53,807 nt of DNA from Candidatus Staskawiczbacteria bacterium RIFCSPHIGHO2_02_FULL_43_16 (GTDB lineage Bacteria > Patescibacteriota > Minisyncoccia > Minisyncoccales > Staskawiczbacteraceae), in assembly GCA_001821935.1 (NCBI GenBank), contig MHOU01000008.1, positions 1 through 53,807 of the forward strand. Direction: 5' to 3'. Below, in pieces: positions 3,407 through 29,345 of the stretch. Under the pieces are notes generated by a model, which had not been told where the DNA came from, made no database searches, and worked only from the letters and a program-made list of their open reading frames with translations. The position numbers and the translations under genes are program-made. How positions within the stretch are numbered: position 1 is the first letter of the stretch; every line of letters starts with the position of its first letter.

Positions 3407-4870
3407 ATGCTAACTAAAACCGATTTTATGAATTACCTGGAATGCCCCATGTATTTGTGGCTTTCCAAAAACCGGCCGGAATTGTTGCCGGAAGATGACG
3501 CCGAAAAAGAGCGGATTTTGGCGGCGGGGCGCGAGGTGGACGAATTTGCCAAAAAGTTATTTCCCAAAGCAATAGAAATCAAAGGCTATAACGAAATTGG
3601 TTTTGAACAGACCCAAAAAGCCCTGGCCCAAAATCCCAAGGCGCTGTTTCAGCCCACTGCCGTGGCAGGCGAATTGGCAGCCCGGGCCGATATTTTGGTT
3701 GCCGGCCAAACGCCCGGCACCTTTGACATCAATGAAGTAAAAATGGCCACCAAGGTAAAAAAGGAATATCTGTATGACTTGGGATTCCAAAAAATCTGTT
3801 TTGAAGGCGCGGGCATACAAATCGGCCGATTAAAGTTGGTGCATATTAACGGCAACTATGTGCGCCACGGCGAAATTAACCCCAGCCAGCTGTTTGACAT
3901 TGAAGATATTACGGAAGATGTTAACGAAAAACTGCCCCAGATACAAGATGAAATTCAGCGCGCGCTAAAAATCATTAATCTAAAAGAAGAGCCCAGTGTT
4001 ACTTTGATTAATTCTTGCGCCAACCCCAAATACTGCGATTATATAGAACATTATTCTAAAATATCCGAAGATATTTTTCCGTTAGCCGAAAACATTCAAA
4101 TGCCGCACCTGTTGCACTTGTTGGAGCGTGAAATTTTAGACCACAAAAAAGTGCCCGCCACGCTGTTGGGAAAAATCGGGTTTGAACCGCCGGTGGAATT
4201 TACCAATATAAATACCGAAGGCATAAAACGCGAATTGGCAAAACTGCAATACCCGCTTTACTTTTTTGATTATGAAACTTACAACTGTGCTATTCCGCCG
4301 TTTGACGGCACCACGCCTTATCAGCAAATTCCGTTTCAATATTCACTGCATATCCAAGACGCGCCGGGTGCCCAGCTGCGCCATGCTGATTTTTTAGCCC
4401 AGACCTTTGAAAACCCCATTCCCGGTTTGTTGGAACATTTGCAAAAAGACATGGGCTCCAAAGGCAGCGTGATTGTTTGGTTCGCGCCGTTTGAAACGGG
4501 GCGCAATAAAGAAATGGCTCTGGGAAATCCGGAATTTGCCCAACTGTTGAATTCCATCAATGAACGGATGTTTGACTTGATGGTCATTTTTAAATTTAAA
4601 AATCAGCTGTACACCAAAAGCGAATTTAAAAAACTAGCTTCGTTAAAAGTTATTTTGCCGGTGCTGTGCCCGGAGCTTTCGTACAAAGATTTGGCTATTC
4701 AAGAAGGGGGGACAGCTTCCGCCAGTTGGCCTATTATGACTAACCCGCAAACTCCGCCCAGCGAGCGCGAACGGCTCAAACATGACATGGTTGAATACTG
4801 CAAGCGCGACACCTTGGCCATGGCGGCGATATTGGAGAGGGTGCGAGCAGACCTTGACATAGTTGTGTAA
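3407..4870 (+). CDS. DUF2779-type protein: PD-(D/E)XK (Cas4/RecB-like) nuclease fused to DnaQ/RNase H-like exonuclease
   Basis: CPMYLW, RADIL..INEVK, FFDYET and YCKRDT motifs. Confidence 0.75.
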   Translation: MLTKTDFMNYLECPMYLWLSKNRPELLPEDDAEKERILAAGREVDEFAKKLFPKAIEIKGYNEIGFEQTQKALAQNPKALFQPTAVAGELAARADILVAGQTPGTFDINEVKMATKVKKEYLYDLGFQKICFEGAGIQIGRLKLVHINGNYVRHGEINPSQLFDIEDITEDVNEKLPQIQDEIQRALKIINLKEEPSVTLINSCANPKYCDYIEHYSKISEDIFPLAENIQMPHLLHLLEREILDHKKVPATLLGKIGFEPPVEFTNINTEGIKRELAKLQYPLYFFDYETYNCAIPPFDGTTPYQQIPFQYSLHIQDAPGAQLRHADFLAQTFENPIPGLLEHLQKDMGSKGSVIVWFAPFETGRNKEMALGNPEFAQLLNSINERMFDLMVIFKFKNQLYTKSEFKKLASLKVILPVLCPELSYKDLAIQEGGTASASWPIMTNPQTPPSERERLKHDMVEYCKRDTLAMAAILERVRADLDIVV

Positions 4871-4934: not shown

Positions 4935-6383
4935 GTGAAAAACACCAAAGAAGAAAAGTGGATGCAGACGTATTGCTTCGATCTGACAGATGAGGAGTTC
5001 GGCGCGGAAAATATCCGCCTGGCGACGCACATCAGCGATAGCCTGGTGCCACTTTTTAATGAAGTTCTTCTGCAAGTTCTCAAGGGTGACGAAACCATCA
5101 AGGAGTTAAAGCAGGAGGTGAAACTACGTGGCAGAGCGCTCAAGCAAAAGGCTAAGGAGGCGCAGATGGAAGATTTGTGGGACAGGGAAAACAACGAGAT
5201 TGACGACGAAGAGTGGCTGGAAAGGGGATATGACCAAGAGGTTATCAAAGAGCATCGTGACTACGTTGACGAAATAGCAAAGCTATATTCGGAAAACAAA
5301 GTCACGGCCTTTGATCACAACTACCACTACGCCCAAGAAAATCTAGAGGCAATTGGTTGCACCGCACCGTACGTTAATATCTCTGCTGGACTTCGCCGTG
5401 GCGCCATTAAAAACTGCCACGGGGCAGTGGATTCATGGCGTAAGCATTTGGCGACGGGCGATTACAAGTCCAAGCCGCCCGGTCAGCAAGAGGTTGGCAA
5501 GTTTTATATGCTTCGGTGCGAACCTGGGTGCGCTGTCACCAAAGATCGTAAAAACGTGCGCATCAGTCTTGGAGATCGCAAGTCCAGCCCGGTGTTTGAG
5601 CTGCCTGGGCTTGATAATTCCAAAAACAAACCCCTGCACATGCTTTTGCGTTCTGATGCGAAGGTGAAAAGTTTTACTTTGAGCCGCCGTTCAGCTCGCA
5701 ACCCTGACAAAAAAGAGTCGGACTTGCAAAAGCCCGGCGTGTGGCGCATTTCAATTAATTTCGAATTGCCTTTGCCAGAGAAAAAGCCCGCGACTGAATA
5801 CAATACGGTGGCGTTGGTTATCGGGTCAAACTACCTTGGGGTGGCATTACATGATTCGGAGAGAAACTTTCCTTTGAATCTGCCATTGCCTCACAAGCAC
5901 TGGTTCCCGATTATTGGCGACATTGAGGGTCGGGCAAACGTTCCTTGGCGGAAGAAAGGGAGTAAAAAGTGGCGGCGAAAAATGTTTGGCGTCCAGAAAA
6001 AGCATTCTGGCGGCCGGCAGGCCTGCTACAGATACATGGCTCGCCAGCAAAAACAAGGCGAGTACGAAACCATTGCCGATCACCTGATTGGCTGTGGTGT
6101 TCACTTTGTGGTGAGCAAACCTTCAATCAACCATCCAAAAGGTTTGGCTGATGCTTCTGCTCCTGACCGCGGAGGTGATACCGGTCCCAACCGCATCATC
6201 TCTAGCACCGGTGTTAATTCGCTCGTGTTAAAGCTCAAGCAGAAAGTGAAGGAGTTTGGCGGGTCGGTCACAGAAATGGAAGCGCCACCGTTGCCCGAAC
6301 GATTTCGTTTTTGGGACAGCGGCCCCAAAAAAGTGATCGTTGCCCAGTTGTTGAGAAATCAATATCTGGCGCAAAAAAAATAA
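4935..6383 (+). CDS. TnpB/Cas12-like CRISPR-associated protein, predicted nuclease-dead
   Basis: TnpB-like blocks (QTYCFDL, VKSFTLSR..GVWRISINFE, KKGSKKWRR, NRIISSTG..LKQKVKEFG); RuvC-I reads VALVIG (D>V295), RuvC-II reads FVVSK (E>S394); no Zn finger or RuvC-III; next to cas1 and array. Confidence 0.8.
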   Translation: MKNTKEEKWMQTYCFDLTDEEFGAENIRLATHISDSLVPLFNEVLLQVLKGDETIKELKQEVKLRGRALKQKAKEAQMEDLWDRENNEIDDEEWLERGYDQEVIKEHRDYVDEIAKLYSENKVTAFDHNYHYAQENLEAIGCTAPYVNISAGLRRGAIKNCHGAVDSWRKHLATGDYKSKPPGQQEVGKFYMLRCEPGCAVTKDRKNVRISLGDRKSSPVFELPGLDNSKNKPLHMLLRSDAKVKSFTLSRRSARNPDKKESDLQKPGVWRISINFELPLPEKKPATEYNTVALVIGSNYLGVALHDSERNFPLNLPLPHKHWFPIIGDIEGRANVPWRKKGSKKWRRKMFGVQKKHSGGRQACYRYMARQQKQGEYETIADHLIGCGVHFVVSKPSINHPKGLADASAPDRGGDTGPNRIISSTGVNSLVLKLKQKVKEFGGSVTEMEAPPLPERFRFWDSGPKKVIVAQLLRNQYLAQKK

Positions 6384-6388
6384 CTCAG

Positions 6389-6425
6389 GCCGTCCCGGTA
6401 CACCTGTATCGCGGACGGCATTTTT
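6389..6425 (+). terminator. Intrinsic terminator after the effector gene
   Basis: GCCGTCC-CGGTACA..TGTATCG-CGGACGGC hairpin followed by ATTTTT. Confidence 0.7.
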
Positions 6426-6439
6426 GTTACACTATAACT

Positions 6440-7171
6440 ATGAATGCCATTTGGTTAACTCATATTTCCAATTACCAAAAAACCGCACATGCTTTTGCTT
6501 CGGCTGAAAAGATTATGAATGTAAAAAACCAGCGGCGTGAATTACTCATGCAAAGGTATGGCACTCTGTTACCCAAAATACGTTTGGCAGATTATCATAA
6601 TAACCAAGAAATTATGTTAGCCGAAGGCCGCACCGCCCAAATATTTTGGAAAAAGTTTTCTTTGCTGTTGCCAAGATGGTGCAGCTTTCGTTCAAGATAC
6701 CCAGGGTCAGATGATCTGGTTAATCGATTACTAGATTTGGGCTACCATCAAATTACTAATGCTATCAGGAAAATCCTTGAAAAGTATGATATTTCGTCAG
6801 CGCTAGGAATTTTGCATGTTGCTCGCAAAACAACCAGCGCTCCACTGGCGTATGATTTGGTAGAAATGTTCCGGGCGGATATTGTGGAAGTGGAAGTCTT
6901 AAGATTTTTGCGCATGAAAAAACAGCCATTGGAAGAGCTGCGCCAAAAAGATATTGCTATTTTTTTATACAGAATTAATCACCGCCTTAATCATAGGTAT
7001 TTTATTAAATCGTTCAAGCAATGCCAAACCTACCGCTATTATATGGAATTACAAATCTTAAAATTTATCAAAGCGGTAAACCATAAAGAAGTTTTTTCTC
7101 CAATTTATTTACCTATTCGTCATGATACAAGATGTACTAAGGGAGTATGTTTTCATGACAAAAAAACTTGA
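6440..7171 (+). CDS. cas1: Short Cas1 (catalytic helical domain only, 243 aa)
   Basis: EGRTAQIFW, DLVNRLLDLGY, GILH, LAYDLVEMFR Cas1 motifs; TG-n-TACACT 6 nt before ATG 6440 supports this start. Confidence 0.85.
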   Translation: MNAIWLTHISNYQKTAHAFASAEKIMNVKNQRRELLMQRYGTLLPKIRLADYHNNQEIMLAEGRTAQIFWKKFSLLLPRWCSFRSRYPGSDDLVNRLLDLGYHQITNAIRKILEKYDISSALGILHVARKTTSAPLAYDLVEMFRADIVEVEVLRFLRMKKQPLEELRQKDIAIFLYRINHRLNHRYFIKSFKQCQTYRYYMELQILKFIKAVNHKEVFSPIYLPIRHDTRCTKGVCFHDKKT

Positions 7172-7197
7172 CAAATAAGGCGATGCCATGCTAAGCT
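7168..7197 (+). promoter_or_regulatory. Promoter for the CRISPR leader/array
   Basis: TTGACA(7168) and extended -10 TG-c-TAAGCT(7192). Confidence 0.55.
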
Positions 7198-7203
7198 CAA
7201 AAT

Positions 7204-7428
7204 AGCACATCATAGGAATATGAGAAAAGTACCCCTGTTCTTGGCAGTTCAGGAAGTATTTTTCTCACCAACTAGTGGTAGTCAGGATGATTACCTTCAA
7301 TCAATTGACAGGATGTATGCGCTGTAGCAGCGCCGCCTGGTCTTGAGCGGACCGGGATGAGGCCTTGTAAAATCTCCTTGCTTTCCTGCAAGGTTGAGGA
7401 AAAAAACACCCCCAGCTCATTTTTTCTT
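7204..7428 (+). ncRNA. Structured CRISPR leader; candidate tracr/scout-like RNA
   Basis: Hairpins at 7221-7267, 7277-7295, 7336-7356 and 7376-7393 between the promoter and repeat 1. Confidence 0.45.
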
Positions 7429-7955
7429 GTAGACGGGCCCTTGCCGACGACGGAGGGGGTTGGTTACTGAAGGGCAACTAGCCACAAATGTCCCATCTTG
7501 TAGACGGGCCCTTGCCGACGACGGAGGGGGTTGGTTACGATAACCGGTTCTGGGAATGAAATTTTTTCCAAGTAGACGGGCCCTTGCCGACGACGGAGGG
7601 GGTTGGTTACGAAAAACAGAACTTTTAGAGCCTCTCTGGTCTTGTAGACGGGCCCTTGCCGACGACGGAGGGGGTTGGTTACGGCAATAGACATGACAAA
7701 AAAAGCGATGATAAGTAGACGGGCCCTTGCCGACGACGGAGGGGGTTGGTTACTGGTCCACGAATGGGCCCTTTCTTAAACTTCGTAGACGGGCCCTTGC
7801 CGACGACGGAGGGGGTTGGTTACAAATAACGGCGACAAGAAAGTATTTTTAGCGGCGTAGACGGGCCCTTGCCGACGAAGACGGGGGTTGGCTACAACAC
7901 GGCCTTATCAATTTTCTTGGGCAAATGTAGACGGGCCCTTGCCGACGACGGAGGG
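7429..7955 (+). CRISPR. CRISPR array: 8 repeats (39 bp, GTAGACGGGCCCTTGCCGACGACGGAGGGGGTTGGTTAC), 7 spacers of 31-33 bp
   Basis: Repeats start at 7429, 7500, 7572, 7644, 7715, 7785, 7857 (4 mismatches) and 7927 (truncated to 29 bp); degenerate right end and downstream terminator indicate + orientation. Confidence 0.98.
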
Positions 7956-7980
7956 TCAAAACAAAAAACAAAAAACTGCC

Positions 7981-8008
7981 AAAGAGCTTCATTGGGGGCT
8001 CTTTTTTC
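7981..8008 (+). terminator. Intrinsic terminator after the array
   Basis: AAAGAGCTTC-ATTG-GGGGCTCTTT followed by a T run. Confidence 0.75.
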
Positions 8009-8103
8009 TTGTAGAACTTTTGTGGTAGAATGGTTTTATGAAAAAAAAGTGGCGATTTTTATAGAGGGGCCACAAAGATATTTCAAAACATATTTCAAAA
8101 CAT

Positions 8104-8791: not shown

Positions 8792-8871
8792 TCTGTTGCG
8801 GATCAACCAAGGCGGCCCGAATTACCGTGGCCGCCTTTTTTCTTGGAAAAAATGTGTGGTAGAATACGGGT

Positions 8872-9594
8872 ATGAAACAAAAAGTCGCGATTTTTGATGT
8901 TGATGGCACGATTTTCCGATCCAGTTTATTAATAGAAGTGGTACGGGTTTTAATTGAAAATAAAATATTTCCGCAGAAAGTAAGGTTCACCTATGAAAAA
9001 AGTTACCAGGATTGGTTGGATAGAAAAGGCAGTTATGAAACCTATATTATGGATGTGGTTAAGGCTTTTGAGGGGAATTTGAAAATATTGGCCCACGATG
9101 ATTTTATGAGAGCGGTAAAACAGGTCATTGCTTTCCATAAAAACCGGACCTATGTTTACACGCGGGGCTTGATTGCCGATTTAAAAAAGAAAGGCTATTT
9201 TATTTTAGCCATTTCTCATTCGCCCAAAGAATTACTGGATGAGTTTTGTGCGCAGTGGGGGTTTGATAAGGTGTATGGCCGGGTGTATGAAGTGGGCAAG
9301 AACGGGAAATTTACCGGTGAAACATTATATAAAGAAGAAATTTCCGACAAGGCAAAAATTTTAAAGCGTTTTATTGAAAAGGCCACCGCCGTTGGCGGGG
9401 TCCCGTCCGAAGGCGGGAAAGGGTTGAGTTTGGCGGATTCCTATGGTGTGGGGGATTCGGAAAGTGATATTAAGTTTTTGACGTTTGTGGAAAACCCGAT
9501 TTGTTTTAACCCTAATGGTAAGCTGTATGAGCACGCCAAAAAGCATGGGTGGCAAATAGTCGTTGAGCGCAAAGATGTAATATATAATTTATAA
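8872..9594 (+). CDS. HAD-superfamily (IB, SerB-like) hydrolase
   Basis: FDVDGT motif I, GDSESD motif IV. Confidence 0.9.
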   Translation: MKQKVAIFDVDGTIFRSSLLIEVVRVLIENKIFPQKVRFTYEKSYQDWLDRKGSYETYIMDVVKAFEGNLKILAHDDFMRAVKQVIAFHKNRTYVYTRGLIADLKKKGYFILAISHSPKELLDEFCAQWGFDKVYGRVYEVGKNGKFTGETLYKEEISDKAKILKRFIEKATAVGGVPSEGGKGLSLADSYGVGDSESDIKFLTFVENPICFNPNGKLYEHAKKHGWQIVVERKDVIYNL

Positions 9595-21706: not shown

Positions 21707-23461
21707 ATGAACATCGAACCGGAACGGCTTAAGAAATTTTTGGTTGATGCCAATCTCATTAAAGAGAAGGATTTTGATGCCGCCCAAAAAGAGGGCGTTA
21801 AAATCCGCGCCGCGGTAAGCGATATGTTGGTCAAGCGGGGTCTTATTGAACGGGAAAAGCTCACTAAATTTGAAGCCTATTTGTTAGGAGTGCCTTTTGT
21901 TAACATTGAAAAAGAAATTATTCCCCATGAAGTCCTGCAAATTATCCCCGAACAGATCGCCAGGGCTCACAGTGTTGTCGCCTTTCGCAAGCGGGAAAAT
22001 AACCTTGAGGTGGCCATGCTTGACCCGGAAGATTTAGCAACCATTGATTTTATCAAAAAAACCGATCCGTTTTTAAAAATCTTGCCGCGCCTGACTACGC
22101 CCGAAGGCATTAAAAATGCTTTGCGTCAATACCAGGAAACGCTGGATGTTGAATTCGGTGGCATTATGCCGGCTGGCGCGTCTGGCGCCATTAACCATAA
22201 GCCCGGAGAAGAAGTTCTGGTTGATAAAAGAGACTTGATTAAAGCTTCCCAGGAACTGCCCATTGTCAAAATTGTGGACACCTTGATGAAGCACGCCATT
22301 TTGCAAAACGCTTCGGATGTGCACATTGAACCGATGGAAAAAGAAGTGGTGGCGCGTTTCCGTATTGATGGTATTTTGCATGACATGATGGCTCTGCCGG
22401 TTTCCAGCGCCCTGGGCATTGTGGCGCGCATCAAGGTGCTGAGCAATTTAAAATTGGATGAACACCGCCTGCCCCAAGACGGGCGGTTTAAAATTGAAAC
22501 GGATGATTATAAATATTCGGTGAGGGTTTCCGTGTTACCGGTGTTTAACGGTGAAAAAATCGTGATGCGGCTTTTGGCCGAAGGCACCAAAGCTCAAACT
22601 TTGGAGGGCTTGGGGTTTTCGGGTAAAGCCTTGGAAATCATCAAGCAAAATTTGGTCAGGCCCACCGGCATGATTTTAATTACCGGGCCCACGGGCAGCG
22701 GGAAAACCACCACGCTCTATTCCATGATGGATATTTTAAACACTCCCAAGGTGAATATTTCCACGGTGGAAGATCCTATTGAATACCGCATGCCGCGAAT
22801 CAACCAAACCCAAACTAACGCGGCCATCGGTTTGACCTTTGCGGCCGGTTTGCGCGCTTTGGTTCGCCAAGACCCCAATATCATCATGGTGGGTGAAATC
22901 AGAGACAGTGAAACGGCTAGCCTCGCCATTAATGCCGCCCTTACCGGCCACTTGGTGCTTTCCACCATCCACACCACCGAAGCCGCCGGCGCCATCCCGC
23001 GGTTAATTGACATGCAGGTGGAACCGTTTTTGATTGCTTCAACCGTCAATGTGATTATCGCCCAGCGTTTGGTGCGCAAGTTTTCCGCCAACAAAGAAAA
23101 GTATCGGTTAAAAAAGGCCGAAGTTGATGAGTTGGCGGCGCACTGCAATATGGCCAGGGTGTTGGAAATACTGCGCGCTGAAAAAATACTGAAAGCTAAG
23201 GGGACGTTGTTGGATCTGGATTTTTACCGGCCGGATATTTCCCAGGGGTCCGGTACGGGATACAAGGGCCGGATGGGCATTTACGAAGTGTTGCCGGTCA
23301 CCCAGGCTATCAAAGAACTGATTGTTAAAAAAGCTTCCACCAAGGATATTACCGATGTGGCCGTTGCCGGTGGCATGCGCACCATGTTTGAAGACGGGCT
23401 AATCAAAGCCGCACAAGGCTTAACAAGCATTGAAGAAGTGTTGAGAGTGATTATAGAGTAA
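21707..23461 (+). CDS. pilB: Type IV pilus assembly ATPase PilB/GspE
   Basis: ASDVHIEP, RLPQDGR, GPTGSGKTTT, RQDPNIIMVGEIRD. Confidence 0.95.
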   Translation: MNIEPERLKKFLVDANLIKEKDFDAAQKEGVKIRAAVSDMLVKRGLIEREKLTKFEAYLLGVPFVNIEKEIIPHEVLQIIPEQIARAHSVVAFRKRENNLEVAMLDPEDLATIDFIKKTDPFLKILPRLTTPEGIKNALRQYQETLDVEFGGIMPAGASGAINHKPGEEVLVDKRDLIKASQELPIVKIVDTLMKHAILQNASDVHIEPMEKEVVARFRIDGILHDMMALPVSSALGIVARIKVLSNLKLDEHRLPQDGRFKIETDDYKYSVRVSVLPVFNGEKIVMRLLAEGTKAQTLEGLGFSGKALEIIKQNLVRPTGMILITGPTGSGKTTTLYSMMDILNTPKVNISTVEDPIEYRMPRINQTQTNAAIGLTFAAGLRALVRQDPNIIMVGEIRDSETASLAINAALTGHLVLSTIHTTEAAGAIPRLIDMQVEPFLIASTVNVIIAQRLVRKFSANKEKYRLKKAEVDELAAHCNMARVLEILRAEKILKAKGTLLDLDFYRPDISQGSGTGYKGRMGIYEVLPVTQAIKELIVKKASTKDITDVAVAGGMRTMFEDGLIKAAQGLTSIEEVLRVIIE

Positions 23462-23468
23462 ACTTAAA

Positions 23469-23864
23469 ATGATTCCTAAATATATTGATCACATAGTTCT
23501 CATTGTGAAAGATGTCAATAAAACATCAGAATTTTACATTAAGTTTCTGGGTAAGCCAGAATTAAAAAATGACGAAGAAGTTGCTTTTAAAATAGGTGAA
23601 ACGAAATTATTTTTTGTTTTGCCGCTAAAAGAATATAAACTAAATGATAAAGATAGTTATTCGCTAAATCACTTGTCGTTTGGTGTAACAAGCACAGAAG
23701 AATTAAGGGAATTTGAACAAGTTCTCAATAATGCAAAAATACCAAACAAAGGAATAAGGATAGACAAATATGGAAAAAAAGAATACGTTTCTTTTGATGA
23801 CCCTGACGGGTATAGGATAGAATTTTATAATCGGCCAATAGAAAAAGATAATGCAACACAATAA
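23469..23864 (+). CDS. VOC/glyoxalase family protein
   Basis: IDHIVLIV, NHLSF, DPDGYRIE. Confidence 0.88.
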   Translation: MIPKYIDHIVLIVKDVNKTSEFYIKFLGKPELKNDEEVAFKIGETKLFFVLPLKEYKLNDKDSYSLNHLSFGVTSTEELREFEQVLNNAKIPNKGIRIDKYGKKEYVSFDDPDGYRIEFYNRPIEKDNATQ

Positions 23865-24684
23865 TACGATTATAAACTTCGAAAATGTTCCGGTGCGGCG
23901 GGTTTGGGATGAAAAAAAAGAGACTTGGTATTTTTCAGTTGTTGATGTGGTGGGGATTTTAACTAACAGCAAAGCCCCTCGCCGGTATTGGTCAGATTTA
24001 AAAATTAAGTTAAAGCAGGAAGGTGCTCAGTTGTACGAAAAAATCGTACAACTGAAATTCTTAGCCCAAGATGGGAAAAAGTATGTTTCCGATGCGGCAG
24101 ATACCGAAACGATGTTTAGAATCATCCAAAGCATTCCTTCACCAAAAGCGGAACCATTAAAGCAATGGTTGGCGAAAGTGGGGTATGAAAGGTTGCAAGA
24201 AACCGTTAACCCAGAAATGGCGGTCAATCGTGCTAGAGGTCATTGGTTGCAAGTGGGCAGGTCAACAAAGTGGATAGAGCAGCGTATGCGTGGCCAAGAA
24301 ATCAGGAATAAACTTACTGATTATTGGGCTGGCCATGAGGTGACCAAAGAAGTTGAGTATGCCATGTTAACGGATATTATTCACAAAGAGTGGAGCGGGC
24401 TGACTACCAAACAACATAAAAAAGCTAAAAGTTTGCGGGGGCATAATTTGCGCGACAACATGACCGAAGCTGAATTAATTTTTACCGCCTTGGCGGAACT
24501 TTCAACCCGGCAGATAGCCGAAAGCGAAAAAGCCAAAGGCTATAGAGAAAATAAAGTTTCAGCACGTAAGGGTGGGAAAATTTCCGGTGATGCCCGTAAA
24601 AAACTTGAACTTCAAACTGGTAAAAAAGTGGTAAGCAAAGAAAACTTTTTACCGCCAAGGAAAGAAATTAAAACATTAACGTAA
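23851..24684 (+). CDS. BRO-N domain protein (phage antirepressor-like)
   Basis: VRRVWDE..WYFSVVDVV, RIIQSIPSPKAEP, NLRDNM. Confidence 0.88.
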   Translation: MQHNNTIINFENVPVRRVWDEKKETWYFSVVDVVGILTNSKAPRRYWSDLKIKLKQEGAQLYEKIVQLKFLAQDGKKYVSDAADTETMFRIIQSIPSPKAEPLKQWLAKVGYERLQETVNPEMAVNRARGHWLQVGRSTKWIEQRMRGQEIRNKLTDYWAGHEVTKEVEYAMLTDIIHKEWSGLTTKQHKKAKSLRGHNLRDNMTEAELIFTALAELSTRQIAESEKAKGYRENKVSARKGGKISGDARKKLELQTGKKVVSKENFLPPRKEIKTLT

Positions 24685-25904
24685 TGCCCAATTTTTCTTA
24701 CAAAGCCAAATCGTTTGAGGGGGCTGATTCTTCCGGGAAGATGCAGGCGGTTGATGAGCGCGAGCTGGCTTTGGCTCTAAAAGCCCAGGGGCTGATTTTG
24801 ATTGACGCGGCCAAGGAAGGCAAAAAGAGGGGGTTGAACATGGAAATCAATGTGCCGTTTTTGGGCGTTTCCAGCACGGAAAAAATCATGATGACGCGCA
24901 ATTTGGGCGTCATGTTTTCCACGGGGCTTAGCATGGTGAAAATTTTTGATATTTTGTCAATTCAATCAAAAAGCCGGCAATTAAAAGATGCCCTGGCGAA
25001 TATTAAAGACAGCGTCAGTAAAGGAGAAAATCTTTCCGACGCGCTGGCGCGCTACCCGAAAATTTTCAATGAATTGTTTGTCAACATGATAAAAGTGGGG
25101 GAGGAGTCCGGCACCTTGGACGAAATTTTCCAAATTTTGGCTCTGCAGCTTGGCAAAGAGCACGAGTTAAAAAGCAAAATCAAAAACGCCATGACCTATC
25201 CGGCCATCATTGTGCTGGTGATGTTGTGCGTGGGCGTGGTGATCATTACCATTGTACTGCCCAGCCTGGATACGTTTTTTACTTCGCTCAACGTGCCGAT
25301 TCCTTTTTACACCCGGGCGGTATTATGGGGGGGGAGGTTTTTGTCAAAAAACTGGTGGCTGCTTTTTGCCGGACCGGCAGCGCTGGTGGGCGCTGTTATG
25401 CTGATCATTAGGACGCCCAAGGGCAAATGGGCTTTGGATACGTTATTGTTGCGTTTGCCGGTGGTTTCCCAGATTGTCAAAAAAGGCAATTCGGCATTTT
25501 TGATCCGGTCGCTCTCTTCATTAATCGCCTCCGGGGTTCCGCTGATACGCGCATTGGAAATTTCTTCCAAAACGGTGGGCAACCAGTATTTTTCAAAGGC
25601 CTTAGTGGAAGCGGCGGTGAAAATAAAAAAAGGGGAAAAATTATCCGGGGCCCTGCGCGAACATGCTAACCTGTTTTCGTTCGGAGTAATTGAAATGATG
25701 GAGGTGGGGGAGGAAACCGGAAAAACCGCCGTCATTTTAAAAAAACTGGCCGAATTTTATGAACAGGAAGCCGGCGCCGCGGTGGAAAAGATGGCCATTT
25801 TAATAGAACCGATGCTGATTATTTTCTTGGGAGTGTCTGTCGGATTTTTCGCTTTTTCCATTATCCAGCCCATGTATTCTTCACTAAAATTTATCGGAAG
25901 TTAA
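24684..25904 (+). CDS. pilC: Type IV pilus platform protein PilC/GspF
   Basis: VGEESGTLD, AMTYP, VGEETG, IEP. Confidence 0.93.
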   Translation: MPNFSYKAKSFEGADSSGKMQAVDERELALALKAQGLILIDAAKEGKKRGLNMEINVPFLGVSSTEKIMMTRNLGVMFSTGLSMVKIFDILSIQSKSRQLKDALANIKDSVSKGENLSDALARYPKIFNELFVNMIKVGEESGTLDEIFQILALQLGKEHELKSKIKNAMTYPAIIVLVMLCVGVVIITIVLPSLDTFFTSLNVPIPFYTRAVLWGGRFLSKNWWLLFAGPAALVGAVMLIIRTPKGKWALDTLLLRLPVVSQIVKKGNSAFLIRSLSSLIASGVPLIRALEISSKTVGNQYFSKALVEAAVKIKKGEKLSGALREHANLFSFGVIEMMEVGEETGKTAVILKKLAEFYEQEAGAAVEKMAILIEPMLIIFLGVSVGFFAFSIIQPMYSSLKFIGS

Positions 25905-25928
25905 ATTTATGAAACAAAGGGGCTTTAC

Positions 25929-26030
25929 CCAAGCACCACTTTCGCTATGTCATTATTATCTAGTGCTTACCATTATTTTAAGAATATTATGATTTGCAAG
26001 AAACCCATCAATCGCGAAAGTGGTGCTGGG
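25929..26030. mobile_element. 102-bp inverted-repeat element (copy 1) at a prepilin GFT site
   Basis: CCAAGCACCACTTTCGC...GCGAAAGTGGTGCTGGG flanked by TTTAC direct repeats. Confidence 0.7.
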
Positions 26031-26879
26031 TTTACTTTGATTGAAATTTTGGTGGTAATTTTTATTCTCGCCGTTTTGGTGCTGGTTTCCATTCCCGCCC
26101 TCGACCTTTTTTTAAAAAATTCCCACGTGGCCAACGGTATGCAGGAATTTTACACCGCCCTCACCCTGGCCCAAAGTAAAACGATTGCCTCGCAAGACGA
26201 AAGCCAATATGGCGTATATGTGGATACCGGCGTTTCGCCCCACCGCTATGTCATATTCAAAGGAGCCACCTATGCCACGCGCCTTGAGGCGGCCGATCAA
26301 TCATTTTGGCTGCCAAAAACGGTGGAATTTTCGGAAATCCTTTTGGGCAGTGGCAATGAAGTGGTGTTTAGCAAGTTAACCGGATATGCTAATCCGGCGG
26401 GCAGCGTTTCTGTAAGATTAAAAGCCGATGCCAGCAAGACAAAAACCGTTTATATTTCCAGCGCCGGCATTTTGGATTTTACGGCTCCTGCGGTAGTGGC
26501 CGACACCCGGGTGAAAGATTCACGCCATGTGCACGTTGATTATAGCCGGGTGATTGATACTGCTACCGAAAGCATCACCATGCTGTTTGACGGCACGGTT
26601 TCCCAGGTTATTCCCATCGCCGTTAATATGGCGGGGGGTCAAATATACTGGACAGGCACGGTGGCGGCCGGCGGATCTGATCAAACCGTAACTGTACGCA
26701 CCCACCGTTTAAACGATGCCGATACCCAGTTTAGCATTCATCGCGACGCAAGCATGAACAATAAAAGCTTGCGCGTTACCATTTCAGGTGACAGTTCGGG
26801 CAACCTGGCGCTGTATTCGGCCGACGGCCTGACCACCAGCTTTTCGTCGGTGTATGTTTCTGATCTTGAGTGGCAATAG
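25947..26879 (+). CDS. Type IV pilin-like (FimT/GspH-like) protein
   Basis: GFTLIEILVV N-methylation motif; start uncertain (25947 or 25989). Confidence 0.85.
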   Translation: MSLLSSAYHYFKNIMICKKPINRESGAGFTLIEILVVIFILAVLVLVSIPALDLFLKNSHVANGMQEFYTALTLAQSKTIASQDESQYGVYVDTGVSPHRYVIFKGATYATRLEAADQSFWLPKTVEFSEILLGSGNEVVFSKLTGYANPAGSVSVRLKADASKTKTVYISSAGILDFTAPAVVADTRVKDSRHVHVDYSRVIDTATESITMLFDGTVSQVIPIAVNMAGGQIYWTGTVAAGGSDQTVTVRTHRLNDADTQFSIHRDASMNNKSLRVTISGDSSGNLALYSADGLTTSFSSVYVSDLEWQ

Positions 26880-26886
26880 GGTTCAC

Positions 26887-26988
26887 CCAAGCACCACTTT
26901 CGCCAAATAATTGTATGCAGACAAAAGTATGTTTATGAATTTGCCATCAAAATCTTATCAAAATGATATTCGCGAAAGTGGTGCTGGG
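26887..26988. mobile_element. 102-bp inverted-repeat element (copy 2) at a prepilin GF site
   Basis: Same termini, flanked by TTCAC/TTCAT. Confidence 0.7.
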
Positions 26989-27465
26989 TTCATATTTCTA
27001 GAAATTTTAATAGCCGTCACGTTAATCAGCGTGGTGTTTGTTACGTTACTGGGGGTCGGGTTTTCCGCTTTAACGCTTGCCACCTCACTGCAAAAAACCG
27101 CCCAAGCTGATTCTTTGATTAAAGAAGAATTGGAAGCGGTGCGTTCATTTCGGGAAGGAACCACCTGGCAAACCAATGGCTTGGCAACCAAAAGTATTGG
27201 CAGCGCCAACCCCTATTACGCAACCTTGGATCCGGAGATTAATCCGCCCGCATGGCAGTTAACCGAAGGCATTGAAACCGTGGGCGATTTTACCCGGAAG
27301 GTGGTTTTTGATGCCGTTTCGCGCGATCTGGCAACCAACAATATTGAAGCGGTGTATAATGCTACTCGTGACGATCCCGATACCCGTAAAGTCACCGTCA
27401 CCGTAACTTTGGGTGCTAAAACGTACCAAGTTATATCATATTTAACCAATTGGAATCAGCAATGA
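26911..27465 (+). CDS. Minor pilin (PilV-like)
   Basis: GFIFLEILIA motif; start uncertain (26911, 26929 or 26935). Confidence 0.8.
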   Translation: MYADKSMFMNLPSKSYQNDIRESGAGFIFLEILIAVTLISVVFVTLLGVGFSALTLATSLQKTAQADSLIKEELEAVRSFREGTTWQTNGLATKSIGSANPYYATLDPEINPPAWQLTEGIETVGDFTRKVVFDAVSRDLATNNIEAVYNATRDDPDTRKVTVTVTLGAKTYQVISYLTNWNQQ

Positions 27466-28007
27466 ATGTAAAGCTTTACCGGTTACATTTTGGCAAAAAG
27501 GGTTTTTCCTTGGTTGAGGTTCTGGTTTCGGTTGCCATATCTTCATTTGTTTTGTTGGCTATTTTGGGGTTTGTTTTCTGGATGAATGTTACCAATCTTA
27601 AAACCAAAGCCAACGCCAACACCCTGGAAAATGCCCGCCGGATATTAGATGTGATAGCTTATGAAATAAAGGGAGCCGAAAATGTGTATTCGCCCACCAC
27701 CGGCGCAGCCCAGCTTTCTTTAAAAACCCTCCGGCACTTGCCTCTGGATGAAGACGTGACATTCATTGATTTTTTCTTGTGTGGCGCGGATAGTACAGAT
27801 ATTTGCTTGAAAAAAGAATCCCAGGTTCCCGTCGTGTTAAATGCTGGCAACGTAGCCATAACCAGCCTTTCCTTTTCGCAAATTGCCAATGGCGCCAACA
27901 CATCGGTTAAAATAAGCCTAACGGTTGAGAACAAAAATCCCACTAACGAAACCAGCCAAAGTTCTCTGGTGACATTGGATTCAACGGTTTCTTTAAGAAG
28001 TTATTAA
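27462..28007 (+). CDS. Minor pilin (PilW-like)
   Basis: KKGFSLVEVLVSV. Confidence 0.85.
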   Translation: MNVKLYRLHFGKKGFSLVEVLVSVAISSFVLLAILGFVFWMNVTNLKTKANANTLENARRILDVIAYEIKGAENVYSPTTGAAQLSLKTLRHLPLDEDVTFIDFFLCGADSTDICLKKESQVPVVLNAGNVAITSLSFSQIANGANTSVKISLTVENKNPTNETSQSSLVTLDSTVSLRSY

Positions 28008-28008
28008 T

Positions 28009-29253
28009 ATGAAACATATCATCAACAACCAGCAAGGCTTTGTCGTTTCTGTTATTACTTTTTTTGTGTTGATTATCATGTTGGCGGTGGCGGTGAGCAT
28101 GAGCGCTTTGGTGGCCCAGCGCCAGGGCGTTTCCACTAACGCGGTCAAAGCCACCCAGTCTTACTACGCGGCCGAATCTGGCATTGAAGATGCGCTGCTC
28201 AGGCTGAACAATGATCCCTCAATTTCCACGCTTTCGTACGCATTGCCCGTTGGCGGAGCCATAGCTGATGTTACCATCCCGGCCGCGGTGGGCGGGTCGC
28301 GGGCTATCAGTTCAAAGGGGGATGTGGATGGCCGTATCAGGACCGTAGAAACGGTATACAGCCTTGATGCCGCCGCCGCATCGTTTTTTTATGGCGCCCA
28401 GGTAGGCGAGGGCGGGTTGGATATGTCTAACGGAAGCCGGATTAAGGGCAACGTGTTTTCCAATGGCAACATTACCGGCACCGGAACGATTGATAATGAG
28501 GTCATCGTGGCGGGCAACGGTCATAGTATTGAAGATGTGTACGTGGGAGGCAGCGTGCAAAGTTATAGCTGTCTGGCTTCGGCCAGCGTGGCCAACTTAA
28601 CCTATGTGACGGGGGGAGTCCATACCTGTACGGTGCGGGGCAGCACTTCTTTACAATCCGATGAAATTCCCACCCAGCCCATGCCTATCAGCCAGTCGCA
28701 AATTAACGACTGGAAAACTGAAGCCGCCGCCGGCCAGGTGATAACCGGAAATTATAGCATTGGAAATAATGCCACCGTATCTCTGGGTCACGTTAAAATT
28801 ACCGGCAACCTGAGTTTTGGCAACGGAGCCGTCCTTAACATTACCGGGGTCATTTACGTGCAGGGTAACATTATTTTCGGTAACTCCAATACCATCCGTT
28901 TGGACAGTTCGTACGGTTCCCTCAGCGGGGTGTTTGTGCTTGATGGCACCATGGACACGGGCAATAACACGGTGCTGACGGGTTCGGGCCAGGAGGGAAG
29001 CTATTTATTGGTATTATCAACCAACGTATCGGATACGGCCATTGAAGTCAGCAACAACGCCGACGGCGCGGTATTTTACACCACGGTCGGGGGCATTAAG
29101 GTCAACAACAACGTAAGCGTGAGCGAATTGGTGGGATATAAAGTGAAACTCAATAACAACGCCGTGTTGGACTATAATAGCGGTTTGGCCAATACGTTTT
29201 TTTCATCAGGCCCCAGCGGCGGCTGGAAGGTGGAGAGCTGGCAGGAAAAATAG
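28009..29253 (+). CDS. PilX-like pilus protein
   Basis: QQGFV hydrophobic helix; SYYAAESGIEDALLRL. Confidence 0.8.
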   Translation: MKHIINNQQGFVVSVITFFVLIIMLAVAVSMSALVAQRQGVSTNAVKATQSYYAAESGIEDALLRLNNDPSISTLSYALPVGGAIADVTIPAAVGGSRAISSKGDVDGRIRTVETVYSLDAAAASFFYGAQVGEGGLDMSNGSRIKGNVFSNGNITGTGTIDNEVIVAGNGHSIEDVYVGGSVQSYSCLASASVANLTYVTGGVHTCTVRGSTSLQSDEIPTQPMPISQSQINDWKTEAAAGQVITGNYSIGNNATVSLGHVKITGNLSFGNGAVLNITGVIYVQGNIIFGNSNTIRLDSSYGSLSGVFVLDGTMDTGNNTVLTGSGQEGSYLLVLSTNVSDTAIEVSNNADGAVFYTTVGGIKVNNNVSVSELVGYKVKLNNNAVLDYNSGLANTFFSSGPSGGWKVESWQEK

Positions 29254-29345
29254 TCCCATTTCTATGGTATAATAACTGAATTACCAAGCACATAAAATCT
29301 AAAGATTTTTGTGCTCGGTGAAAATTTTTAAATATTTAAATTTTC

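What the first reader, a model, noticed from the sequence alone, without database searches (positions are those of the whole stretch)
7539..7571. Spacer 2 is antisense to elongation factor G (fusA)
Its reverse complement TTGGAAAAAATTTCATTCCCAGAACCGGTTATC reads LEKISFPEPVI across the whole spacer, matching the conserved EF-G motif LE(S/K)xxFPEPVI. A cutting effector could not tolerate this as a self-target.
Basis: partly seen in the sequence, partly recalled or inferred. Interest (0 to 1): 0.85.

Follow-up and report, generated by a model that had tools for sequence, protein, structure and literature searches.

The report
Self-derived spacers beside a dead Cas12f
A tiny groundwater bacterium carries a CRISPR array whose spacers are copied mostly from its own housekeeping genes (EF-G among them), next to a Cas12f-like guide protein that appears to have lost its DNA-cutting site, which would explain why the cell survives.

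Summary
Window 7539-7571 is spacer 2 of a 7-spacer array with a 39-nt repeat. It matches the genome's single fusA gene at 32 of 33 bases, antisense.

It is not alone. In this genome, spacers 1, 5, 6 and 7 match enolase (32/32), rpsS (31/31), rplD (31/33) and glyA (24/31). Spacer 4 matches a membrane-exchanger gene in relatives. Only spacer 3 has no match.

The effector (4935-6383) has a Cas12f/TnpB fold. Three things indicate it cannot cut:
- The RuvC-I Asp is replaced by Val.
- The RuvC-II Glu is replaced by Ser.
- The zinc finger and RuvC-III segment are absent.

Cas1 keeps its catalytic motifs. No Cas2 was found.

The pattern recurs in three more lineages of the same genus, where arrays of this effector family also hold spacers identical or nearly identical to chromosomal genes. 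These include dnaK (twice), 23S rRNA, a release factor and others. I found no PAM and no strand bias.

Best reading: this is a non-cutting, binding-type CRISPR variant that records chromosomal DNA, and the self-spacers are tolerated because nothing is cleaved. It is not known whether they regulate their targets.

I rate it a new variant of a known kind. The closest parallels are TldR, dCas12f and the fragmented-CasY case.

The parts
3407..4870 (+). DUF2779 / weak Cas4-like PD-(D/E)XK-type protein (487 aa), directly upstream of the effector
   Evidence: Pfam DUF2779 5.9e-37; Cas_Cas4 0.0019, below cut-off. PADLOC Cas4 models 2e-5 to 3e-4. A homologue lies next to the effector in 7 of 44 family loci.
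4935..6383 (+). Effector: 482-aa Cas12f/TnpB-like protein with RuvC-I Asp replaced by Val295, RuvC-II Glu replaced by Ser394, and no zinc finger or RuvC-III (predicted nuclease-dead)
   Evidence: PADLOC Cas12_x1 (CAS-V-F effector) E 1.2e-42 over 3-401 of 402 profile positions. No Pfam, NCBIfam or PDB sequence hit. AlphaFold2 model pLDDT 89, pTM 0.81. Foldseek top hits are Cas12m2, AsCas12f, a dCas12f-gRNA complex, CnCas12f1 and ISDra2 TnpB, E 2e-10 to 2e-8. Catalytic columns come and hhalign.
6311..7171 (+). Cas1 (286-aa ORF as listed; overlaps the effector's 3' end, so the true start may be later)
   Evidence: Pfam Cas_Cas1 3.7e-20; TIGR00287 74.2 bits against a cut-off of 71.7. Alignment to solved Cas1 chains keeps the EG, G.LH and YDL.E.FR motifs. 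It is the only cas1 in the genome. A homologue sits beside the effector in 39 of 44 family loci.
7172..7428 (+). Conserved non-coding element between cas1 and the first repeat (candidate tracrRNA/scaffold and leader)
   Evidence: It aligns with the equivalent regions of G018, G020 and L045, including an invariant block TATGCGCTGTAGC.GCGCCG and GCTCATTTT just before repeat 1. No Rfam family at E <= 1. RNA duplex prediction against the repeat was no better than the opposite-strand control.
7429..7965 (+). CRISPR array: 6 exact 39-nt repeats, 2 degenerate terminal repeats, 7 spacers of 31-33 nt
   Evidence: It is the only array found in the genome by a k-mer screen.
7468..7499 (+). Spacer 1: identical (32/32) to the organism's own enolase gene, antisense, 83-114 nt into the ORF
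   Evidence: C10:75583-75614(-). Enolase_C 4.6e-92.
7539..7571 (+). Spacer 2 (the finding): 32/33 to the organism's own fusA, antisense; the mismatch is at spacer position 1
7611..7643 (+). Spacer 3: no match found
   Evidence: No match in the own genome, in 25 genomes of the genus, or as an exact match in viral contigs.
7683..7714 (+). Spacer 4: matches a Na/Ca-exchanger-family gene of relatives (28/32 in G011; 85-91% in four others). No homologue in the 95%-complete G000 assembly.
   Evidence: No exact match in viral contigs.
7754..7784 (+). Spacer 5: identical (31/31) to the organism's own rpsS (ribosomal protein S19), antisense, starting 8 nt after the start codon
   Evidence: C10:21429-21459(-). 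Ribosomal_S19 8.2e-34.
7824..7856 (+). Spacer 6: 31/33 to the organism's own rplD (ribosomal protein L4), sense; mismatches at spacer positions 1 and 7, both at third codon positions
   Evidence: C10:19942-19974(+). Ribosomal_L4 2.1e-64.
7896..7926 (+). Spacer 7 (oldest): serine hydroxymethyltransferase (glyA), antisense. 24/31 to the organism's own copy, 29/31 to G006, 28/31 to G008.
   Evidence: The 17-nt match to rpmE seen is rejected as chance.
7981..8004 (+). Terminator-like hairpin with T-run just after the array
   Evidence: 10-pair stem. Two such sites were found in the region against 1.2 expected, so this is weak evidence on its own.

Best explanation
Spacer 2 is a real copy of the bacterium's own fusA gene, or of a near-identical allele. 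Cas1 placed it in the array of a non-cutting CRISPR variant.

The system consists of a DUF2779/Cas4-like protein, a C-terminally truncated and RuvC-dead Cas12f/TnpB-like effector, Cas1 without Cas2, a conserved scaffold-like non-coding RNA, and the array.

Shown:
- The spacer-to-gene matches.
- The loss of the RuvC-I and RuvC-II catalytic residues.
- The missing zinc finger and RuvC-III segment.
- Intact Cas1 motifs.
- The same self-derived spacer content in three further lineages of the genus.

Inferred:
- Acquisition has little or no PAM or self/non-self filtering. It therefore samples chromosomal DNA, apparently favouring heavily transcribed genes (rRNA, ribosomal proteins, EF-G, DnaK, enolase).
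- The crRNAs can at most direct binding, not cleavage, so the self-spacers are not lethal and persist.
- Any effect on fusA would be a CRISPRi-like roadblock. For spacer 2 this is probably weak. By analogy with dCas12a, RNA polymerase would meet the PAM-distal side, and position 1 is mismatched.

I consider tolerated, largely neutral self-recording more likely than a dedicated regulatory circuit. The spacers lie inside ORFs at arbitrary positions, differ between lineages, and decay by synonymous drift.
For: Self-matches in G000: 4 of 7 spacers match at 31-32 nt, E 2e-10 to 1.6e-8. A fifth, sp7, matches glyA at 24/31.

The targets are single-copy genes.

Array contig C8 and target contig C10 belong to one genome:
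- Contamination is 0.07% and completeness 94.94%.
- C8 carries ATP synthase, type IV pilus genes and tgt.
- Tetranucleotide correlation between C8 and C10 is r = 0.989.
- Four runs from four studies that hold 72-80% of the array's sampled words also hold zero-difference contigs over the rplD and rpsS targets.
- Contig ends fall at the edges of the 31-nt spacer-5 protospacer in all four runs. This is what a 31-mer present in two contexts would produce.

Dead effector:
- In an alignment of 85 family members of at least 380 aa, the close subfamily has xALG where distant members have (I/V)DLG.
- The subfamily has no Glu at RuvC-II.
- hhalign against a canonical TnpB-like member (P0103: GIDLG, VEDL, CxxC...CxxC, HADVLAALNI) gives probability 99.3%. 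It aligns Asp to Val295 and Glu to Ser394. The alignment ends at P0103 residue 348 of 409, so its last 61 residues, which carry the zinc finger and RuvC-III motif, have no aligned counterpart.
- The fold is Cas12f/TnpB-like.

Cas1 motifs are kept.

Family trait:
- L045, which has the same repeat and the same downstream mini-array spacer as G018: 6 of 10 spacers match G018. Three are exact, two have 2 mismatches and one has 5. Targets are dnaK twice, 23S rRNA, a transketolase-like gene, a C-methyltransferase and an unknown ORF.
- G020's second array: 1 exact match (MBL-fold hydrolase) and 1 at 27/32 (release factor).
- L044: 1-2 of 4 spacers match conserved genes of the genus.

No PAM: the 5' and 3' flanks of 12 targets show no consensus.

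Precedent: a fragmented CasY locus with 12 self-targeting spacers in a Roizmanbacterium, where the authors note that CPR bacteria lack RecBCD (PMC6509639, passages read).
Against: - No activity was measured. 'Nuclease-dead' rests on sequence and a predicted fold.
- Asp406 and Glu440 are nearly invariant in the family, so a relocated active site or a recruited nuclease is not excluded. The DUF2779 protein is the obvious candidate for a recruited nuclease.
- The single spacers of the mini-arrays next to the G018 and G020 effectors have no match within 3 mismatches in their own genomes. Self-targeting is therefore not universal.
- Perfect matches to essential genes (enolase, rpsS) should be costly if binding were strong. 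That argues for weak or no binding, or for a purpose.
- The enrichment for highly expressed genes is a post-hoc category. Several targets are ordinary genes (methyltransferase, MBL hydrolase, exchanger).
- Mismatches at synonymous sites, and sp7's better match to another species, show that not every spacer came from this exact genome.
Confidence: 0.6

Rival explanations
1. The self-spacers are functional. The dead effector is an adaptive, natural CRISPRi system that binds growth-related genes (translation, glycolysis, chaperones, rRNA) and throttles their transcription, for instance to control growth or dormancy in a symbiotic cell with a very small genome.
For: - RNA-guided repression by nuclease-dead TnpB/Cas12f relatives is established for TldR (10.1101/2023.11.30.569447, passages read).
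- A CRISPR-array-associated dCas12f cluster with predicted promoter targets is mentioned in PMC13472631 (passages read).
- The effector family is intact and conserved: 57 clusters at E <= 1e-30 and a high-confidence fold.
- Self-spacers recur in four lineages.
- Many targets are among the most highly expressed genes: fusA, rpsS, rplD, eno, dnaK twice, 23S rRNA.
- The array is held in runs from 7 studies.
Against: - Targets lie inside ORFs at arbitrary positions, not at promoters.
- Both strands are hit, about half each.
- No spacer-target pair is conserved between lineages. Each array has different targets.
- The older spacers are decayed: 2 and 7 mismatches, mainly at synonymous sites. That is not expected for guides under selection.
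- No PAM was found.
Confidence: 0.2
2. The spacers were taken from DNA of related Staskawiczbacteria, not from the cell's own chromosome. The source could be DNA taken up from kin or competitors, or old spacers carried along when the locus moved between species. On this view the system is aimed at, or simply records, incoming kin DNA, and the matches to self are collateral.
For: - 8 of 10 mismatches in sp2, sp6 and sp7 lie at third codon positions. That is the signature of allelic or orthologous divergence.
- sp7 matches glyA of G006 (29/31) better than the organism's own copy (24/31).
- sp4 matches a gene present in five relatives but not found in G000.
- The window encodes type IV pilus machinery. 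A role of that machinery in DNA uptake is recalled, not tested.
- The effector family is patchy within the genus, 4 of 25 genomes, which suggests mobility.
Against: - Three G000 spacers are identical or nearly identical to the organism's own genes: 32/32, 31/31 and 32/33.
- For sp2 the own gene is the best match among the 26 genomes of the genus that were searched, G000 included.
- L045 and G020 also have exact self-matches.
- G000 is only 95% complete, so the sp4 gene may simply be unassembled.
Confidence: 0.12
3. The spacers derive from RNA. cDNA of abundant transcripts, made by one of the genome's reverse transcriptases acting in trans, is integrated by Cas1.
For: - The combination seen here is the one I recall for RT-Cas1 systems (recalled, not checked in a paper here): a bias to highly transcribed genes including rRNA, no PAM and no strand bias.
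- G000 holds six RVT_1 genes over the Pfam cut-off. One lies directly beside glyA, the sp7 target.
Against: - No RT is fused to or adjacent to cas1 here.
- The RTs score far below every named NCBIfam family cut-off. They are probably retroelement RTs with their own templates; I recall that DGRs are common in CPR.
- Several targets are not obviously abundant transcripts.
Confidence: 0.05
4. Binning or assembly artefact: the array contig (C8) and the target contigs come from different organisms, so there is no self-targeting.
For: - The genome is a metagenome bin of 12 contigs.
- All four strong targets sit on one contig, C10.
Against: - Contamination is 0.07%.
- C8 and C10 carry complementary single-copy core genes.
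- Tetranucleotide correlation is r = 0.989.
- Array and targets co-occur with zero-difference contigs in 4 runs from 4 studies.
- Independent genomes G018/L045 and G020 show the same pattern.
- sp7's diverged match is on a different contig, C12.
Confidence: 0.03

Closest known systems
Type V-F CRISPR-Cas (Cas12f / Cas14)
   Same: - Miniature effector with a TnpB/Cas12f fold (PADLOC CAS-V-F model; Foldseek hits to As, Cn, Un1, Sp and Os Cas12f).
- Repeat of about 39 nt and spacers of about 31-33 nt.
- cas1 and a long conserved non-coding RNA between the cas genes and the array.
- Found in ultra-small uncultivated prokaryotes.
   Different: - RuvC-I Asp and RuvC-II Glu are replaced, and the zinc finger and RuvC-III are missing.
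- No Cas2, and only a weak Cas4-like protein.
- No T-rich or other PAM at the targets.
- Spacers match the host chromosome rather than mobile elements.
TldR (TnpB-like nuclease-dead repressors; 10.1101/2023.11.30.569447)
   Same: - TnpB-derived, with RuvC residues lost and a C-terminal truncation removing the zinc finger and RuvC (paper passages).
- Guides match the host's own chromosome.
   Different: - TldRs carry one fixed guide RNA aimed at a conserved promoter (fliC, oppF), and have no CRISPR array and no Cas1.
- Here there is a multi-spacer array, an apparently active Cas1, targets that differ by lineage, and targets that lie inside ORFs.
CRISPR-array-associated dCas12f cluster, and dCas12f-sigmaE (PMC13472631)
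   Same: - Nuclease-dead, C-terminally truncated Cas12f homologues, some next to CRISPR arrays, with predicted genomic targets (paper passage).
- The solved dCas12f-gRNA complex (9n9c, 9n9m) is among the best fold matches.
   Different: - No detectable sequence similarity to any solved chain.
- No sigma-factor or HTH gene among the neighbours scanned.
- The paper's array-linked cluster is described as targeting promoters of efflux cassettes. Here housekeeping ORFs are hit.
- That paper's Extended Data and supplements, which I could not see, may or may not include this clade.
Fragmented CasY (Cas12d) locus with self-targeting spacers in a Roizmanbacterium (PMC6509639)
   Same: - CPR bacterium, type V effector presumed unable to cut, Cas1-only adaptation.
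- 12 of 22 spacers match the organism's own genome, and old self-spacers persist.
- The authors suggest a link to the lack of RecBCD and a possible regulatory role (passages read).
   Different: - That case is a one-off: a recently broken nuclease with intact RuvC motifs and a clear 5'-TA/TG PAM on its self targets.
- Here the whole effector family is natively RuvC-less, no PAM is seen, and the pattern recurs in several lineages.
Cas12k, Cas12m, Cas12c (binding-only type V effectors)
   Same: RNA-guided DNA binding without target cleavage. Cas12m2 is the top fold match.
   Different: - Cas12k works with Tn7-like transposition genes, and none are present here.
- Cas12m and Cas12c keep a RuvC site and defend against mobile elements using PAM-dependent binding. 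Their arrays are not dominated by self-spacers (recalled, plus abstracts seen).

Membership tests
CRISPR-Cas type V-F (Cas12f) | Single effector with a TnpB/Cas12f-like fold | tested here: met
   PADLOC Cas12_x1 E 1.2e-42. Foldseek E 2e-10 to 1e-7 to Cas12m2, Cas12f and TnpB structures.
CRISPR-Cas type V-F (Cas12f) | Intact RuvC D-E-D triad with zinc finger/target-nucleic-acid-binding segment | tested here: not met
   Asp to Val295 and Glu to Ser394. The protein ends about 29 residues after the last position aligned to a canonical member, and has no CxxC pairs.
CRISPR-Cas type V-F (Cas12f) | CRISPR array and adaptation genes (cas1, cas2, cas4) | tested here: inconclusive
   Array and cas1 are present. 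Cas2 was not found in the 95%-complete genome. Cas4 is represented only by sub-threshold matches of a DUF2779 protein.
CRISPR-Cas type V-F (Cas12f) | tracrRNA that pairs with the repeat | tested here: inconclusive
   There is a conserved non-coding block between cas1 and the array. Predicted duplex energy was no better than the opposite-strand control. No Rfam match.
CRISPR-Cas type V-F (Cas12f) | 5' PAM next to protospacers | tested here: not met
   No consensus in the 5' or 3' flanks of 12 chromosomal targets. No foreign targets were available.
TldR | Nuclease-dead TnpB-like protein, often truncated at the C-terminus | tested here: met
TldR | Single omega-RNA-like guide, no CRISPR array and no Cas1, with a conserved promoter target | tested here: not met
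   7-spacer array and Cas1. Cas1 lies beside the effector in 39 of 44 loci. Targets are inside ORFs and differ between lineages.
dCas12f-sigmaE activators | Operonic ECF sigma factor (rpoE), with or without an HTH gene, next to dCas12f | tested here: not met
   The ten ORFs around the effector show no sigma-factor or HTH Pfam domain.
RT-Cas1 (RNA spacer acquisition) | Reverse transcriptase fused to or adjacent to Cas1 | tested here: not met
   Cas1 is 286 aa with no RT domain. The six RVT_1 genes are elsewhere in the genome.
Type V-K CAST (Cas12k) | Dead Cas12 linked to tnsB/tnsC/tniQ inside a Tn7-like element | tested here: not met
   No transposition domains among the neighbouring ORFs.

The most novel reading that the evidence does not exclude
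This is an adaptive 'self-recording' CRISPR variant. Cas1 writes pieces of the cell's own most heavily transcribed genes (rRNA, ribosomal proteins, EF-G, DnaK, enolase) into the array, without PAM selection. A natively nuclease-dead Cas12f-like effector then uses these guides to bind and damp those genes. That would be a heritable, updatable feedback on growth in a minimal-genome symbiont, with transcription-coupled (or even RT-mediated) sampling explaining the choice of targets.
Probability: 0.15. Interest if true: 0.92.

Novelty: new variant of a known kind. Interest (0 to 1): 0.74.

Why it matters
Self-targeting spacers are normally rare and lethal accidents. Here they are the main content of the arrays of a whole effector family. 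That family has an apparently working integrase and no nuclease.

If the guides are used, this would be a natural CRISPRi system whose targets are updated by adaptation. That lies between fixed-guide repressors (TldR, dCas12f) and immune CRISPR systems.

If the guides are not used, the family is a clean natural experiment on what Cas1 samples when interference exerts no counter-selection. The sampled material is chromosomal, apparently highly transcribed DNA, with no PAM, in organisms said to lack RecBCD.

Either way, the family offers a compact (about 420-480 aa), natively dead, possibly PAM-less DNA-binding scaffold that would be worth testing.

Tried and rejected
Leads that gave nothing or were dropped:
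- rpmE as the target of spacer 7. The 17-nt exact match is rejected: the flanks do not match, and glyA explains the whole spacer.
- 'rplL' and 'MsrB' as targets of L045 spacers. These were short or weak matches to G000. The same spacer matches a G018 methyltransferase exactly, so both are dropped.
- The single spacers of the G020 and G018 mini-arrays have no second match within 3 mismatches in five genomes.
- The window's repeat was not found in G002, G019, G018 or G020 within 3 mismatches. A 25-nt repeat core gave 0 exact matches in metagenome contigs.
- Spacers 3, 4 and 7 have 0 exact matches in viral contigs. Exact matching only, so this is weak evidence.
- The effector family was not found in 400 sampled genomes of the class at E <= 1e-10. 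The search for related loci on genome contigs returned only the four genus loci already known.
- Spacers of the other metagenome loci gave no tblastx signal above shuffled controls against G000. Their own genomes are not held: L045 was 'not held, not searched'.
- tracrRNA anti-repeat: RNAduplex energies were no better than the opposite-strand control.
- Sigma-70 promoter scan of 7100-8100: 0 sites.
- Read laying over the fusA protospacer is not interpretable. Many other organisms' contigs pile up on this conserved stretch and contigs break nearby. Only one run (X5) shows a zero-difference contig spanning it.
- I did not use complex prediction, the protein-atlas search or a second structure job.

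- Supplementary files of papers are closed. The Extended Data and supplements of PMC13472631, and the Cas12/TnpB survey it cites, may already list this clade.
Full report
**The observation.** The window holds one CRISPR array at 7429-7965 on the + strand. The 39-nt repeat GTAGACGGGCCC...GGTTAC occurs six times exactly, against none in 100 shuffles. Two degenerate copies sit at the far end. Seven spacers of 31-33 nt lie between the repeats. The finding's coordinates, 7539-7571, are exactly spacer 2, and its reverse complement reads LEKISFPEPVI.

A pattern search of the whole 740,502-base, 12-contig genome found one further place, C10:15303-15335 on the minus strand, with one mismatch. The reversed control pattern found none. 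That place lies in a 691-aa ORF containing ...VVLEKISFPEPVIAMRVEP... and all EF-G domains. So the spacer is a near-exact nucleotide copy (32/33; E 7e-10) of the organism's own single-copy fusA. It is not merely a motif-level resemblance.

There is no phage match. The best hit in the plasmid collection is another fusA at 85%. None of the 25 other genomes of the genus matches better than the organism's own gene.

**It is not an isolated spacer.** BLAST of all seven spacers against the genome, followed by annotation, gives:
- Spacer 1: enolase, 32/32, antisense.
- Spacer 2: fusA, 32/33, antisense.
- Spacer 5: rpsS, 31/31, antisense, starting 8 nt after the start codon.
- Spacer 6: rplD, 31/33, sense.

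Searching the array against the 25 other genomes of the genus resolved two more. Spacer 7 is serine hydroxymethyltransferase: 29/31 in G006, 28/31 in G008, and only 24/31 in the organism's own glyA on contig C12. Spacer 4 matches a Na/Ca-exchanger-family gene in five relatives (28/32 in G011), and that gene has no homologue in this 95%-complete assembly. Only spacer 3 has no match anywhere I could look.

Eight of the ten mismatches in spacers 2, 6 and 7 fall at third codon positions. They therefore reflect allelic or orthologous divergence of the genes, not random decay of the spacers. Mismatch load tends to rise toward the old end of the array: 0, 1, no match, not scorable (gene absent from the assembly), 0, 2, 7.

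**Same genome?** Several lines say yes.
- The bin has 94.94% completeness and 0.07% contamination.
- The array contig C8 carries chromosomal core genes: F-type ATP synthase alpha and beta, type IV pilus PilB/C/M, and tgt.
- C10 carries the only copies of the targeted genes.
- The tetranucleotide profiles of C8 and C10 correlate at r = 0.989.
- Ten public runs hold part of the array region, and six of them hold half or more of its sampled words. The ten runs come from 7 studies.
- In the four runs I laid (X1, X2, X4, X5, from four studies), zero-difference contigs cover the rplD and rpsS targets.
- In all four runs, contig ends fall at L003 8430/8431 and 8459/8460, the edges of the 31-nt spacer-5 protospacer. 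This is expected if that 31-mer occurs in two contexts in the assembly graph.
- The fusA site itself is not interpretable there, because contigs of many other organisms pile up on it.

**The locus.** Reading upstream of the array on the same strand:
- A 487-aa DUF2779 protein with sub-threshold Cas4 similarity.
- A 482-aa protein with no Pfam, NCBIfam or PDB sequence match. It matches the PADLOC CAS-V-F effector model Cas12_x1 end to end (E 1.2e-42).
- Cas1, which keeps the EG, G.LH and YDL.E.FR motifs when aligned to solved Cas1 chains.
- A 257-nt non-coding stretch that is conserved in relatives and matches no Rfam family.

No Cas2 was found in the genome. There is only one array and one cas1. 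Four things place transcription on the + strand: the far-end degenerate repeats, the conserved order effector-cas1-ncRNA-array, the family-wide repeat ending ...GGGG.T..GCTAC next to the spacer, and a terminator-like hairpin at 7981-8004. The crRNA of spacer 2 would then be complementary to fusA mRNA and to the coding strand.

**The effector looks unable to cut.** A profile search of 1.84 billion representative proteins found 117 relatives at E <= 1e-3, of which 57 were at E <= 1e-30. I aligned the 85 of them that are at least 380 aa long. Distant members show the canonical RuvC-I (I/V)DLG, whereas the subfamily containing this protein has xALG; here it is L-V-I-G. At RuvC-II the subfamily has FVV(T/S)x instead of vvvEdL.

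hhalign of the 40-sequence subfamily profile against a canonical TnpB-like member (GIDLG, VEDL, two CxxC pairs, HADVLAALNI) gives probability 99.3%. It pairs the catalytic Asp with Val295 and the Glu with Ser394. The alignment stops at residue 348 of 409 in the canonical protein, before its zinc finger and RuvC-III. The query has only about 29 residues left, and these are modelled as one helix.

The AlphaFold2 model is confident (pLDDT 89, pTM 0.81). Its best structural matches are Cas12m2, AsCas12f, a solved dCas12f-gRNA complex, CnCas12f1 and ISDra2 TnpB. This is the same kind of decay described for TldR and dCas12f proteins (passages of 10.1101/2023.11.30.569447 and PMC13472631).

One caveat applies. 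This is sequence and model evidence only. Asp406 and Glu440 are nearly invariant in the family, so an unconventional active site or a recruited nuclease cannot be excluded.

**A family trait.** The effector occurs in 4 of 25 other genomes of the genus and in none of 400 sampled genomes of the class. Record titles name these relatives Candidatus Staskawiczbacteria, with one titled Saccharibacteria.

Forty metagenome loci encode relatives. Counting these with the four genus loci, 39 of 44 have cas1 beside the effector and 7 of 44 have the DUF2779 gene. A k-mer screen flagged repeat clusters in 31 of the 40 metagenome loci. In 28 of these a repeat could be resolved, and most arrays are small.

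Three further lineages show self-derived spacers:
- *L045.* It shares its repeat and its downstream mini-array spacer with genome G018, so it is practically the same species. Its 10-spacer array has six spacers matching G018: exact matches to the 23S rRNA gene, a C-methyltransferase and an unknown ORF; two spacers with 2 mismatches each in dnaK; and one with 5 mismatches in a transketolase-like gene.
- *G020.* It has a second array with its own copy of the non-coding element. One spacer is identical to G020's MBL-fold hydrolase gene and another is 27/32 to its release-factor gene.
- *L044.* One spacer matches an OmpR-type regulator gene conserved in the genus (91-96% in four genomes), and another matches G011 at 92% over 26 nt.

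Against generality, the single spacers of the mini-arrays next to the G018 and G020 effectors match nothing else in those genomes.

**What the targets say about mechanism.** In crRNA orientation the twelve targets fall on either strand relative to the gene: in G000, three antisense and one sense among the four strong matches, and sp7 is also antisense; in L045, four sense relative to the ORFs overlapping the targets and two antisense, one of the 'sense' calls (s9) being in fact antisense to the 23S rRNA it lies in; and in G020, two antisense. Their 5' and 3' flanks show no shared motif. They lie at arbitrary positions inside genes rather than at promoters. No spacer-target pair is shared between lineages.

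These features speak against RNA targeting and against an evolved, fixed regulatory circuit of the TldR kind. They fit promiscuous, PAM-less sampling of chromosomal DNA.

Many targets are among the most transcribed genes of any cell: 23S rRNA, S19, L4, EF-G, DnaK twice and enolase. This suggests that transcription-associated DNA damage or exposure feeds Cas1. The category is post hoc, though, and several targets are ordinary genes.

The only closely similar published case I found is the fragmented-CasY locus of a Roizmanbacterium, with 12 self-targeting spacers. Its authors also point to the lack of RecBCD in CPR bacteria and speculate about regulation (PMC6509639, passages read).

**Most likely working.** Cas1 integrates fragments of the cell's own DNA, or of close kin. 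The array is transcribed on the + strand and processed with the upstream conserved RNA. The dead effector loads these guides and can at most bind. Because nothing is cut, the spacers persist and drift.

For spacer 2 I expect at most a weak roadblock, for three reasons:
- The guide pairs with the coding strand, so RNA polymerase would meet the PAM-distal end first. This is by analogy with dCas12a and is recalled, not tested.
- Position 1 is mismatched.
- No PAM is evident.

I give this reading 0.6. A truly regulatory, adaptive CRISPRi role gets 0.2. Kin-DNA origin as the main story gets 0.12, cDNA origin 0.05 and a binning artefact 0.03.

**Literature.** I ran four literature searches:
- nuclease-dead / Cas12 / self-targeting / CPR
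- Staskawiczbacteria / CRISPR
- inactivated RuvC / type V / self-targeting spacers / repression
- dCas12f / sigma factor / CRISPR array

None returned a description of this family or of arrays dominated by housekeeping-gene spacers beside a natively dead Cas12f-like protein. PMC13472631 mentions, in one sentence, a cluster of array-associated dCas12f proteins with predicted promoter targets. I could not see its Extended Data or supplements, so overlap with this clade cannot be excluded.

**Verdict.** The locus is best filed as a new variant within the known kind 'nuclease-dead TnpB/Cas12f derivatives'. Three features set it apart: it retains an adaptation module, its arrays are filled mainly with chromosomal spacers, and it shows no evident PAM.

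Noticed in passing
G000 contigs C12:82410-83009, C2:103589-104185, C12:112936-113535, C2:831-1427, C11:70883-71479, C6:5870-6478: There are six reverse-transcriptase (RVT_1) genes of about 340-370 aa in a 740-kb genome, all over the Pfam cut-off. One lies directly beside glyA, the target of spacer 7. Two were scanned and score far below every named NCBIfam RT family. The type is undetermined; possibly diversity-generating retroelements (recalled).
   Followed up: partly
G020:C6:20275-20560 (L076 5308-5561): A second, orphan array in a relative, preceded by a 93%-identical duplicate of the conserved non-coding element found next to that genome's effector locus. Alternate repeats differ in their middle part.
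   Followed up: partly
L038 584-1181 and 3813-4410; L039; L049: Some metagenome loci carry two arrays in inverted orientation flanking the effector-cas1 pair. In L038 the two are mirror images with the same spacer lengths, which could be an inverted duplication or an assembly artefact.
   Followed up: no
G020 and G018, many contigs (query positions 665-761 of L076:5100-6000): A short palindromic element just downstream of G020's second array is repeated on both strands at many places: most of the 24 hits in G020 and 33 in G018. It may be a REP-like or terminator-type repeat.
   Followed up: no
G000 contig C1 (18,808 bases): This contig is a tetranucleotide outlier in the bin, with r = 0.70 to C8 and 0.67 to C10. 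All other contigs give 0.91-0.99. It may be foreign, mobile or mis-binned.
   Followed up: no
window 8001-8048 and 8835-8882 (also weakly 7118-7165): A repeated promoter-like block, CTTTTTTCTTG...TGTGGTAGAAT...ATGAAA, sits in front of two downstream genes. The same TTTTTTCTTGTAG string also precedes repeat 1 at 7420-7432.
   Followed up: no
G000:C10:2418-2524: A k-mer screen flagged a tandem repeat that is a coding Pro/Glu-rich repeat (…GAACCTGAACCA…), not a CRISPR array.
   Followed up: yes
window 21707-30464: A type IV pilus gene cluster (PilB-like ATPase, PilC-like platform protein, PilM) lies on the same contig as the CRISPR locus. It may be relevant to DNA uptake in CPR bacteria (recalled).
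   Followed up: no
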